Of a DNA stretch of 64,000 nucleotides, positions 26,341 through 28,191 are shown in pieces. How positions within the stretch are numbered: position 1 is the stretch's first letter; each line of letters begins with the position of its first letter. A program made the position numbers and the translations under genes. The notes under the pieces were generated by a model, which was not told the origin of the DNA, searched no databases, and worked only from the letters and a program-made list of their open reading frames with translations. This DNA is from Candidatus Hodarchaeota archaeon (lineage in GTDB: Archaea; Asgardarchaeota; Lokiarchaeia; Sigyniarchaeales; SOKP01): assembly GCA_048887225.1 (NCBI GenBank), contig JBHLJY010000006.1, forward strand, positions 64,001 through 128,000. Reading direction: 5' to 3'.

Positions 26341-26838
26341 TTACGCGCCTCCCTCGTATTCTGGTTTATTAATCCATGTTTCATATTCATCTTCGGGTAC
26401 AAAGAAGAAATCTGTCATTTTTCCTTCTCTTTCTTTCAAAAACACAGCCTTGACAACCCTGCCTTTCTTAATTTTCGATGGTACTAAGTTTTCCGAGAAA
26501 ATTCCTTGAAGTAAAGCGGTGTCGGCTCCATCCAATTTAACAAAAGCTATGCCATATGGGATTGCTTTTATAAAAGCTGAAGTTGTGTACCAAACGATTG
26601 TACTCACTTCTATCTTTCCCGTTTGCTTCATTTCAATCCAATTGGTAGGCTCATAACATTCAGAGCAGTTGATTCTTGGAGGCATCCACGTTTTTCCACA
26701 TTTGGTACATTTTGTACCTAGGAGTTTTTTGTTGTTTTTTACTTCGATAAAGAACTTCGATTGGCCGCCCATGGTGTATTTGTAGTTAATGGCGATCCTG
26801 TCTCGGATTTCATGTGATTGAAATTTATCGTCATTCAT
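26341..26838 (-). CDS. DUF35 Zn-ribbon/OB-fold protein
   Basis: CTKC..MPPRINCSEC; ATGA overlap with the upstream thiolase stop. Confidence 0.9.
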   Translation of the reverse strand: MNDDKFQSHEIRDRIAINYKYTMGGQSKFFIEVKNNKKLLGTKCTKCGKTWMPPRINCSECYEPTNWIEMKQTGKIEVSTIVWYTTSAFIKAIPYGIAFVKLDGADTALLQGIFSENLVPSKIKKGRVVKAVFLKEREGKMTDFFFVPEDEYETWINKPEYEGGA

Positions 26839-28191
26839 GGCTTCTTCAACCCCTCTTCATTTGCCATTACAATAACGGCTGCATAAGCGGCTCCTGGACC
26901 TCCGATCGAATGAGCAATGGACCGACCTTTTTCAATTGTGACTTGGTGTTTGCCAGCATCTCCTCTAATCTGAAGAGCGGCCTCTCCTGTGCTCATTATA
27001 CCAGTCGCGCCCACAGCATGTCCACAGCCAATTAAGCCTCCCGAAGGACAGCATGGCAATTCACCATTTAGCCAAGGACCTTCGCCGGGCTTTTCGAAAG
27101 AATTTTCAATCCAAGGACCGCCTTCTCCGAATGGTACAAAGCCTAATTCTTCATAAGAAATTACTTCTTGACCGCTAAACGCATCGTGGAGCTCTGCAAC
27201 ATCGATTTGTTCCTTAATCTTGTTGTAGTCGAGCCCTGCCATTTTATAAGCTGCTTTAGCAGCTTCAATGTTTGAATAAAGCCGACCAATGCTCTCTCTG
27301 TTTCCGATAAAACAATCTGTATTTGCAGCAGCGACTCCGGTTATCCATGTAGGCTTTTCCACGCCGAGTTCTTTTACTTTTTGTTCGTTTGCAAGGATTA
27401 ATGCGGCAGAAGCCTCGGAATAAAGACAGCAATCCAGGAGTTTGAAGGGATAACAGATAATTCTTGAGTACATAACGTCTTCGACGGTTACCTTCATTGG
27501 CGATTGAGCCTTTGGGTTGAGCAGAGCGTTCCCATGATTTTTAATGGAAACCATAGCCATATAAGCCAAAAGTTGAAAATATTCAACTGATTGTTTGCTC
27601 TTCGGTCGGGTTTCCAAATTCTTTGTAATGTGCATTTACCATAGAAACATATGAAGATGCCGCCATCATGCCCATAGGATATTTACGGAATATCGCGAAA
27701 TGCGAATTAAATTCTTTCATAAGTCATATCCGCAGAATAGGCAATGGCATTTAATACTTCTGGTGTTGTAACTCCTGTTTGCTAACGCTTTAAACTAAAT
27801 ATTTACAAGATTCGTCATAACAGTCGTTACATTTCTCCAAACCAATGCAGAGACACAAATCCGACAATCCAGATGCAACTTCAGCATAAGCCATTCTCAC
27901 AGTATAACCTCCCGTTGCTCCGCCCGACGCAATTCTCGTGCCAGGTTTGTCATTCATGCCAAGATAACTATTAGTAAATATATCGGGCATGAATTGGCGT
28001 TCAAAAAGCTCATTATAAATTCCATAAACCGTGGACTGCAAATCTTTATGTATAATCTCTGCCCCGTTTTTATTTGCATCATCAAGAGCCAATCTAGTGG
28101 CATCAAACGCCAGCTCAAAATACGTTTTATCAAGATACCTTGCTCTAAAAGGAGTAATGCCTACTCCGATTATCGCAACTCTATTTGGCAT
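26835..28191 (-). CDS. Intron-containing SCP-x-type thiolase-fold protein; exons 28191-27811, 27781-27716, 27681-27595, 27560-26835; 419 aa after splicing
   Basis: Joined frame reads ...LEKCNDCYDE|QTGVTTPEVLNAIAYSADMTYE|YPMGMMAASSYVSMVNAHYKEFGNPTEEQ|MAMVSIKNHGNALLNP..., collinear with the six paralogs in the window; HDAF and GHAVG motifs present. Confidence 0.9.
27561..27594 (-). other. BHB mRNA intron 3 (34 nt)
   Basis: GAGC AA^A CAA...UUG GCUU AU^A: helix GAGC/GCUU, inner stem AGUUGAA/UUCAACU; removal restores the frame. Confidence 0.86.
27682..27715 (-). other. BHB mRNA intron 2 (34 nt)
   Basis: UAUG AA^A GAAU...AUUC CGUA AA^U: helix UAUG/CGUA; removal restores the frame. Confidence 0.86.
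27782..27810 (-). other. BHB mRNA intron 1 (29 nt)
   Basis: GACG AA^U CUU...AAG CGUU AG^C: 4-bp helix GACG/CGUU with two 3-nt bulges; removal restores the frame. Confidence 0.88.

What the first reader, a model, noticed from the sequence alone, without database searches (positions are those of the whole stretch)
26835..28191. Metabolic protein-coding gene with three bulge-helix-bulge (tRNA-type) introns
Seen in the sequence: the thiolase-fold gene appears as two broken ORFs. On the - strand, three short insertions (27810-27782, 29 nt; 27715-27682, 34 nt; 27594-27561, 34 nt) separate four exons of 381, 66, 87 and 726 nt that join into one 419-aa protein collinear with the six intact paralogs here. 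At every insertion, 4 nt near the end of the upstream exon pair with 4 nt near the intron 3' end, each strand is followed by a 3-nt bulge, and an intron stem closes the structure. Cutting after the second nucleotide of each bulge gives exactly the frame-restoring boundaries, in 3 of 3 cases. Established: this is the geometry recognised by the archaeal splicing endonuclease EndA, with RtcB as ligase. Such introns are common in tRNA and rRNA, but the well-known mRNA case is the single cbf5 intron of Crenarchaeota. Inference: a multi-exon mRNA spliced by EndA in a probable Asgard archaeon, which annotation pipelines would call a pseudogene. I cannot verify novelty against the literature.
Basis: partly seen in the sequence, partly recalled or inferred. 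Interest (0 to 1): 0.97.

Follow-up and report, generated by a model that had tools for sequence, protein, structure and literature searches.

The report
Three tRNA-type introns in thiolase gene
A metabolic (thiolase-like) gene of a Lokiarchaeia-type Asgard archaeon is split by three 29-34-base inserts shaped like tRNA introns, and relatives carry the same gene without inserts or with other such inserts at nine positions. Its mRNA therefore almost certainly has to be cut and rejoined by the tRNA-splicing enzymes, which published work documents for only one archaeal gene (cbf5).

Summary
On the minus strand, 28191-26835, four exons (381/66/87/726 nt) are separated by inserts of 29, 34 and 34 nt. 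Joined, they give a 419-aa thiolase-like protein.

- **BHB geometry.** Each insert has a 4-bp helix, two 3-nt bulges and an inner hairpin. Cutting after bulge nucleotide 2 gives the ortholog-consistent junction in 3 of 3 cases.
- **Orthologs.** In about 80 orthologs from Promethearchaeota genomes and metagenomes the gene is intronless (nearest: 96% aa identity, collinear) or carries other mini-inserts. I found 31 distinct insert sequences at 9 positions, up to 4 per gene. With boundaries set only by protein alignment, 21 are strict BHB (0.34 expected) and 30 are relaxed (4.4 expected).
- **Function.** All insert-bearing copies are otherwise intact. Their dN/dS is 0.02-0.05, like intronless pairs, and the inner helices covary.
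- **Host.** It has two EndA paralogs and RtcB. rtcB itself, cspA and other genes carry the same kind of insert.

Most likely these are EndA/RtcB-spliced pre-mRNA introns (about 0.85). Papers searched report only cbf5 and one Haloferax 5'-UTR case. This scan has flagged similar inserts before, in this genome and in other Asgard and DPANN genomes.

The parts
27811..28191 (-). Exon 1 (381 nt, codons 1-127; ATG at 28191). Its last 6 nt, GACGAA, supply the 5' strand of the central helix (27816-27813) and two bulge nucleotides (27812-27811).
27782..27810 (-). Intron 1, 29 nt, phase 0. Inner helix CTT/AAG plus an AT hairpin. The 3' central strand is CGTT (27787-27784). The 3' bulge is AG|C (27783-27781).
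27716..27781 (-). Exon 2 (66 nt, 22 codons). It ends in TATGAA; the central strand is 27721-27718.
27682..27715 (-). Intron 2, 34 nt, phase 0. Inner helix GAAT/ATTC plus a GC hairpin. The 3' central strand is CGTA (27687-27684). The 3' bulge is AA|T (27683-27681).
27595..27681 (-). Exon 3 (87 nt, 29 codons). It ends in GAGCAA; the central strand is 27600-27597.
27561..27594 (-). Intron 3, 34 nt, phase 0. Inner helix CAA/TTG plus a 7-bp hairpin. The 3' central strand is GCTT (27566-27563). The 3' bulge is AT|A (27562-27560). The BHB fold is the MFE.
26835..27560 (-). Exon 4 (726 nt including the stop). It holds the thiolase C-terminal domain (PF22691).
26341..26838 (-). Downstream partner gene with a ChsH2/DUF35-type zinc ribbon and OB fold. 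Its start overlaps the thiolase stop by 4 nt (ATGA), an operon arrangement that is conserved in relatives.

Best explanation
The three inserts are archaeal bulge-helix-bulge (BHB) introns in a pre-mRNA.

Proposed mechanism: after transcription, the last 4+2 nt of each upstream exon pair with the 3' end of the insert. This forms a 4-bp helix flanked by two 3-nt bulges and closed by an intron hairpin. The host's two-subunit splicing endonuclease (EndA alpha+beta) cuts after the second nucleotide of each bulge, and RtcB ligates the exons. The result is an intact 419-aa thiolase-like protein, encoded in an operon with its DUF35 partner.

Shown: the geometry, exact ortholog-consistent boundaries, conservation and covariation of such inserts across lineages, purifying selection on the host gene, and presence of the enzymes.

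Inferred: cleavage and ligation in the cell.

The three introns of this genome look like lineage-specific gains in a gene that is a recurrent intron target in Lokiarchaeia.
For: 1. The BHB rule gives the frame-restoring junction in 3 of 3 inserts. Chance is about 1e-7 to 1e-6.
2. Intronless orthologs are collinear across all three junctions. The nearest, L003, is 96% aa identical and runs 419 aa without a break.
3. I found 31 distinct mini-inserts in this gene, at 9 positions, in independent assemblies. With boundaries set only by peptide match, 21 are strict BHB (0.34 expected) and 30 are relaxed (4.4 expected). All 31 have at least 3 of 4 central pairs.
4. Every insert-bearing copy yields a 412-422 aa ORF after excision (two copies cut off at a contig end give 398 aa), with no other lesion.
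5. dN/dS against the nearest intronless copy is 0.02-0.05, the same as the median for intronless pairs, 0.041.
6. Inner helices covary. In alignment A1, 90% of cells are paired against 19-47% in slid controls, with 4 compensated pairs. In A2 the figures are 96% against 27-52%, with 5 compensated pairs.
7. Inserts are shared within clades of the gene tree, so they persisted through speciation.
8. The genome encodes two EndA paralogs, one with the Tyr/His/Lys set and one without the His, as in (alpha-beta)2 enzymes. Those enzymes are reported for Asgard with the broad-specificity L1 loop (PMC5829648). RtcB is also present.
9. The same kind of insert splits rtcB, cspA and another gene here, and genes in congeners.
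10. In cbf5 the cut also lies between bulge nucleotides 2 and 3 (PMC2738675).
Against:
- The three inserts of this genome have no homolog elsewhere in the collections, so they have no covariation of their own. All nine members of this copy's clade in the gene tree lack inserts, so a very recent, not yet decayed inactivation cannot be formally excluded for this copy.
- The outer helix is weak, and the BHB conformer of insert 2 lies 4.9 kcal/mol above the MFE.
- rtcB, which is needed for ligation, is itself interrupted.
- Archaeal transcription-translation coupling would let ribosomes read unspliced RNA.
Confidence: 0.85

Rival explanations
1. The gene was recently inactivated. BHB-shaped elements inserted into it but are not removed, or are removed too inefficiently, so this copy is a young pseudogene whose function is covered by the six paralogs.
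For: The three inserts are unique to this genome, and all nine members of its clade in the gene tree lack them. Six paralogs lie in the same window. There is no RNA evidence.
Against: There is no other lesion in 1257 nt. aa identity to L003 is 96% although synonymous sites are saturated (dS about 1.6, dN/dS 0.024). The 4-nt overlap with the partner gene is kept. Homologous situations in 13 other lineages are conserved through speciation with compensatory changes. Essential single-copy genes here (rtcB) carry the same kind of insert.
Confidence: 0.06
2. The BHB sites are endonuclease cleavage sites used for mRNA decay or regulation. EndA cuts, but the exons are not (always) religated, so the inserts act as switches that lower expression rather than as constitutive introns.
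For: EndA cleavage of a 5'-UTR BHB affects expression of HVO_1309 in Haloferax (PMC7714728). Three sites clustered within 250 nt would make a sensitive switch. Insert 2 folds less favourably.
Against: Without ligation no full-length protein could be made, yet all four exons are under purifying selection at the same level as in intronless orthologs. Exact frame restoration in 31 of 31 inserts has no role in a pure decay signal.
Confidence: 0.05
3. Translational bypassing: ribosomes hop over the inserts, as in phage T4 gene 60 or the mitochondrial 'byp' elements, without any RNA processing.
For: The inserts are short (29-34 nt) and hairpin-containing, with stop codons soon after the take-off point. 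Superficially they resemble byp elements.
Against: Matching take-off and landing codons are absent in 3 of 3 inserts: GAA vs TAG, GAA vs AAA, CAA vs TAT (read). Bypassing also does not explain the 4-bp exon-intron helix with two 3-nt bulges, nor its covariation.
Confidence: 0.02
4. Assembly or sequencing artefact in this MAG.
For: The raw reads could not be inspected, and the three inserts are seen in only one assembly.
Against: Artefacts would not form BHB motifs at exact codon-restoring positions. Equivalent inserts occur in many independent assemblies, including a 1.28-Mb contig.
Confidence: 0.01

Closest known systems
cbf5 (pseudouridine synthase) pre-mRNA intron of Crenarchaeota (Watanabe 2002; Yoshinari 2006; Yokobori 2009, PMC2738675)
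   Same: It is a short BHB intron inside a protein-coding sequence. It is cut between bulge nucleotides 2 and 3, it depends on a hetero-oligomeric EndA with relaxed specificity, and it shows lineage-specific presence and absence.
   Different: cbf5 is one gene with one intron at one position in a different phylum. Here a metabolic gene carries three introns (up to four in relatives), there are nine positions in one gene family, and the host is an Asgard archaeon. Splicing is shown by cDNA for cbf5 but not here.
[quoted passage not shown]
   Same: The motif, the presumed enzymes, the multiple introns per gene and the repeated independent gains are the same. About half of the tRNA genes that ARAGORN finds in this genome have introns.
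   Different: The host RNA is an mRNA, so excision must be exact to the nucleotide to keep the frame, and it competes with translation. Those papers do not report protein-gene introns.
BHB intron in the 5' UTR of Haloferax volcanii HVO_1309 (PMC7714728)
   Same: An mRNA is processed by EndA at BHB sites, confirmed in vitro.
   Different: That intron lies in an untranslated leader, not within codons, and there is only one.
HAC1/XBP1 unconventional mRNA splicing (IRE1 endonuclease plus tRNA ligase/RtcB) in eukaryotes
   Same: A coding mRNA is spliced without a spliceosome: a protein endonuclease cuts at stem-loops, RtcB-type ligation follows, and the frame changes on excision.
   Different: The endonuclease (IRE1) and the RNA motif are different. 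That system is a regulated stress response, and the two are not shown to be related.
Translational bypass elements (T4 gene 60; 'byps' of Magnusiomyces mitochondria)
   Same: They are short non-coding inserts in otherwise intact ORFs that gene callers read as frameshifts.
   Different: They need matching take-off and landing codons, which are absent here. No RNA is removed.

Membership tests
Archaeal BHB intron (EndA/RtcB substrate) | [quoted passage not shown] | tested here: met
   All three inserts have 4 of 4 central pairs with 3-nt bulges. The BHB fold is the MFE or near it for inserts 3 and 1, and 4.9 kcal/mol above the MFE for insert 2.
Archaeal BHB intron (EndA/RtcB substrate) | Cuts after bulge nucleotide 2 give the exact mature junction | tested here: met
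   The junctions equal those of intronless orthologs in 3 of 3 inserts here. In the whole set, 21 of 31 are strict and 30 of 31 relaxed, against 0.34 and 4.4 expected.
Archaeal BHB intron (EndA/RtcB substrate) | Flanking helices h (exon-exon) and h' (intron) | tested here: inconclusive
   The inner helix is present (3-4 bp plus hairpin). The outer helix is only 1 bp directly adjacent and forms longer only with an offset. This makes it a relaxed motif of the kind cut by (alpha-beta)2 enzymes.
Archaeal BHB intron (EndA/RtcB substrate) | Host encodes the splicing endonuclease and the RtcB ligase | tested here: met
   There are two PF01974 genes of 201 aa, one with and one without the catalytic His. 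There is one rtcB, itself split by a 29-nt BHB insert.
Archaeal BHB intron (EndA/RtcB substrate) | Excision and ligation observed in RNA (cDNA, RNA-seq, in vitro cleavage) | not testable with these tools
Archaeal BHB intron (EndA/RtcB substrate) | Structure maintained by compensatory change among homologous introns | tested here: met
   This holds for positions G and E of the gene family. It is not testable for the three inserts of this genome, which have no homologs.
Thiolase superfamily (with DUF35/ChsH2-type partner) | Thiolase_N and thiolase C-terminal domains; adjacent zinc-ribbon/OB partner | tested here: met
   The intronless ortholog matches PF00108 and PF22691. Exon 4 matches PF22691. 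The neighbour matches PF12172 and, below its cut-off, PF01796.
Translational bypass element | Identical or near-cognate take-off and landing codons flanking the gap | tested here: not met
   GAA vs TAG, GAA vs AAA, CAA vs TAT (sequence).
Group I / group II intron, intein, known small RNA | Catalytic RNA core or in-frame protein-splicing domain; Rfam match | tested here: not met
   The inserts are 29-34 nt and out of frame. Rfam gives no relevant match; the only hit is a sub-threshold osmY match inside exon 4.

The most novel reading that the evidence does not exclude
Lokiarchaeia-type Asgard archaea carry a genome-wide, evolutionarily dynamic population of EndA/RtcB-spliced mini-introns in protein-coding genes. 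My sample suggests very roughly half a percent to one percent of genes. Some genes have three or four, nine positions occur in one gene family, and one sits in rtcB itself. That would mean multi-exon genes and obligatory mRNA splicing existed, by a non-spliceosomal route, in the closest prokaryotic relatives of eukaryotes.
Probability: 0.7. Interest if true: 0.95.

Novelty: new variant of a known kind. Interest (0 to 1): 0.86.

Why it matters
Published work knows one archaeal coding sequence that needs splicing (cbf5, one intron) and one UTR case. If these inserts are spliced, several things follow.

- **Multi-intron archaeal gene.** An ordinary metabolic gene with three introns, in a gene family with nine intron positions gained and lost among close lineages, would show that archaeal mRNAs can be multi-exonic.
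- **Intron turnover without a spliceosome.** Gain and loss would be occurring in protein genes that have no spliceosome and no self-splicing introns, in the lineage nearest to eukaryotes.
- **Annotation.** Such genes are called as fragments or pseudogenes, which biases metabolic reconstructions of Asgard MAGs.
- **Open questions.** How is splicing reconciled with coupled translation? Does an intron in rtcB create a feedback loop? How do the introns arrive?

Tried and rejected
1. A naive genome-wide scan for BHB motifs whose excision joins two open frames of at least 50 codons gave 13,035 hits. There was no excess over cuts displaced by 1-3 nt. The signal is swamped by ordinary gene junctions, so the scan cannot serve as a census.
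2. My first 'ortholog-consistent boundary' test penalised phase-1 and phase-2 junctions and undercounted. It was replaced by the fixed-frame version.
I redid it with coordinates derived in the script.
5. BLAST of the three inserts against the genome found no other copies, so they are not a repeated mobile element family.
6. Rfam gave nothing relevant.
7. Translational bypass was rejected on the codon mismatch.
8. A 36-nt stop-containing insert at G000 C4 ~215762 did not fit the BHB rule and is left unexplained.
9. The first Pfam call failed on a reference that contained stops and was rerun.

Full report
**What is there.** The minus-strand gene 28191-26835 reads as two broken ORFs of 133 and 266 aa. 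Removing 27810-27782 (29 nt), 27715-27682 (34 nt) and 27594-27561 (34 nt) joins exons of 381, 66, 87 and 726 nt into a 419-aa protein. That protein matches six intact paralogs in the window at 27-33% identity over nearly full length. The intronless ortholog matches Pfam Thiolase_N and the thiolase C-terminal domain. The next gene, whose start overlaps the stop by 4 nt, is a ChsH2/DUF35-type zinc-ribbon/OB partner. All three inserts lie in the N-terminal thiolase domain and are in phase 0.

**Geometry.** I use this register: 4-nt exon strand, 3-nt bulge cut after nucleotide 2, inner helix, 4-nt intron strand, 3-nt bulge cut after nucleotide 2. In it the inserts read:

| Insert | 5' side | 3' side |
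|---|---|---|
| 1 | GACG AA\|T | CGTT AG\|C |
| 2 | TATG AA\|A | CGTA AA\|T |
| 3 | GAGC AA\|A | GCTT AT\|A |

- Each has 4 of 4 central pairs and 3-4 inner pairs directly next to the bulge, plus a hairpin.
- Unconstrained folding returns this BHB for insert 3 and, with one extra pair, for insert 1.
- For insert 2 the BHB conformer lies 4.9 kcal/mol above the MFE of a 74-nt context.
- The exon-exon outer helix is weak in all three, so the motif is a relaxed one.

**Chance.** A strict motif (4/4 central pairs plus at least 3 inner pairs) occurs at 0.16% of (position, length) choices in this genome. Around these inserts, the strict criterion (at least 2 inner pairs) occurs at 0.34%. Only 3, 3 and 2 excisions per insert are compatible with the ortholog protein, so three hits have a probability of about 1e-7 to 1e-6.

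**Organism and orthologs.** The window is G000:C6:64001-128000, in a 3.27-Mb, 98%-complete genome. Related records are Promethearchaeota (Lokiarchaeia-type Asgard) MAGs.

- In 40 relatives, 17 have an ortholog at 82-96% aa identity. Most are continuous 415-434-aa frames that are collinear across all three junctions.
- Others are broken by different short inserts.
- Adding GTDB-genome and metagenome loci gave about 84 distinct gene copies.
- These hold 31 distinct insert sequences of 29-34 nt at nine positions: after CDS nt ~381, ~384, ~444, ~447, ~459, ~534, ~542, ~920 and ~925.
- One gene can hold up to four inserts (L190). L062 and L175 have three each.

**Non-circular test.** I set boundaries only by the best match of the locally joined peptide to the intronless reference.

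| Criterion | Observed | Expected |
|---|---|---|
| Strict BHB at a consistent excision | 21 of 31 | 0.34 |
| Relaxed BHB | 30 of 31 | 4.4 |

All 31 have at least 3 of 4 central pairs. The in-frame 30-nt inserts carry in-frame stops, so they are not protein insertions.

**Is the gene alive?**
- After rule-guided excision, every insert-bearing copy gives a 412-422-aa ORF with no other lesion; two copies cut off at a contig end give 398 aa.
- dN/dS against the nearest intronless copy is 0.02-0.05, including 0.024 for this genome against L003 (nt identity 82.5%, aa identity 96.2%, dS about 1.6). The median for intronless pairs is 0.041.
- Homologous inserts at positions G and E keep their inner helix through compensatory changes. 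Paired cells are 90% and 96%, against 19-52% when the partners are slid, with 4 and 5 pairs changed on both sides.
- On a gene tree the inserts are shared within clades (for example B+G and H/I) and also show losses, so they persisted through speciation.
- This genome's copy is the only insert-bearing member of its clade, so its three inserts look like lineage-specific gains.
- They have no other copies in the genome and no homolog in the collections. The copy with the most similar exon-4 protein (L148, 98% aa identity there, 83% nt identity over the CDS) is intronless.

**Machinery and generality.**
- The genome has two 201-aa EndA paralogs. One has the Tyr/His/Lys set; the other lacks the His. 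This fits an (alpha-beta)2 enzyme. That type, with the L1 loop that confers relaxed specificity, is reported for Asgard (PMC5829648).
- There is a single rtcB, and it is itself split by a 29-nt textbook BHB insert (TTGG AT|A ... CCAA AA|A, 9-bp inner helix). Excision restores GGVGY|DINCG.
- rtcB is uninterrupted in four relatives.
- A motif-free comparison with 860 kb of a congener covered about 346 genes. It found strict BHB inserts in cspA and one more gene here, and in two genes of the congener.
- Another congener has one in the acyl-CoA dehydrogenase ortholog of window 484-1818.
- ARAGORN finds 32 tRNA genes, 15 of them with introns.

The phenomenon is therefore genome-wide but sparse. This thiolase gene is a hot spot, for reasons I could not determine.

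**Rivals.**
- *Young pseudogene.* This cannot be excluded for this particular copy. It is unlikely given the exact BHB geometry three times over, the absence of other damage, and the behaviour of equivalent genes elsewhere.
- *Cleavage without ligation.* This does not fit the selection acting on all four exons.
- *Translational bypass.* This fails the take-off/landing codon test.
- *Artefact.* This is implausible because many independent assemblies show the same thing.

**Literature.** Full-text searches and reading found only two mRNA cases: cbf5, and the Haloferax HVO_1309 5'-UTR intron. A 2020 paper states that cbf5 is the only other example. The 2009 cbf5 paper says introns in other protein genes had been predicted but never confirmed. 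The 2024 and 2026 Asgard papers treat tRNA introns only.

**Earlier notes of this scan.** The scan has flagged BHB inserts in protein genes before. In this genome the notes cover acetoacetyl-CoA synthetase, uL11, a sugar kinase, cspA and rtcB. Others cover different Asgard and DPANN genomes. I re-tested rtcB and cspA myself.

**What is missing.** I therefore hold splicing in vivo at about 0.85.

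Noticed in passing
G000 C13:33458-33486 (+), outside the window: The only rtcB gene of the genome is split by a 29-nt strict BHB insert carrying an in-frame TAG. Excision restores the conserved GGVGY|DINCG motif. The ligase needed for BHB splicing would thus depend on BHB splicing. rtcB is uninterrupted in G001, G032, G033 and G038.
   Followed up: yes
G000 C2 ~11573-11602 (-) and C18 ~43843-43875 (+), outside the window: A cold-shock protein gene (30-nt insert, GTGA AA|A ... TCAC TC|T) and a second gene (32-nt insert, ATGT AA|A ... GCAT AA|A) carry strict BHB inserts relative to their G001 orthologs.
   Followed up: partly
L092 (G009:C22) ~10226-10258 of the fetched stretch; ortholog of window 484-1818 (-): The acyl-CoA dehydrogenase-like gene that is intact in the window carries a 31-nt BHB insert in a congener (CATG AT|A ... 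CAAG AA|A, 3 of 4 central pairs, 5-bp inner helix). Excision restores ...DPYCMI|HGGGSNY....
   Followed up: yes
G001:C6 ~396.8 kb and ~441.9 kb (loci L124, L127): Two more strict BHB inserts in a congener. One is 32 nt with 8-bp inner and 8-bp outer helices, in the ortholog of a 642-aa G000 ORF (C32). The other is 29 nt, in a small zinc-ribbon protein gene.
   Followed up: partly
G000 C4 ~215750-215800 (+), outside the window: A 36-nt insert with an in-frame TAA interrupts a conserved gene (...LFDPQ / AMGMGAS...) but does not fit the BHB register I used. Similar short words sit at both ends. Unexplained.
   Followed up: partly
window 1981-12522 and 26835-28191: Seven thiolase-like paralogs, several with DUF35-type partners and an acyl-CoA dehydrogenase, are clustered in 28 kb. 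This is an unusually large set of thiolase/OB-fold pairs, and only one of them carries inserts.
   Followed up: no
whole genome G000: ARAGORN finds only 32 tRNA genes in a 98%-complete genome, 15 of them with introns. Further tRNA genes are probably hidden by non-canonical introns, as reported for other Asgard lineages.
   Followed up: no
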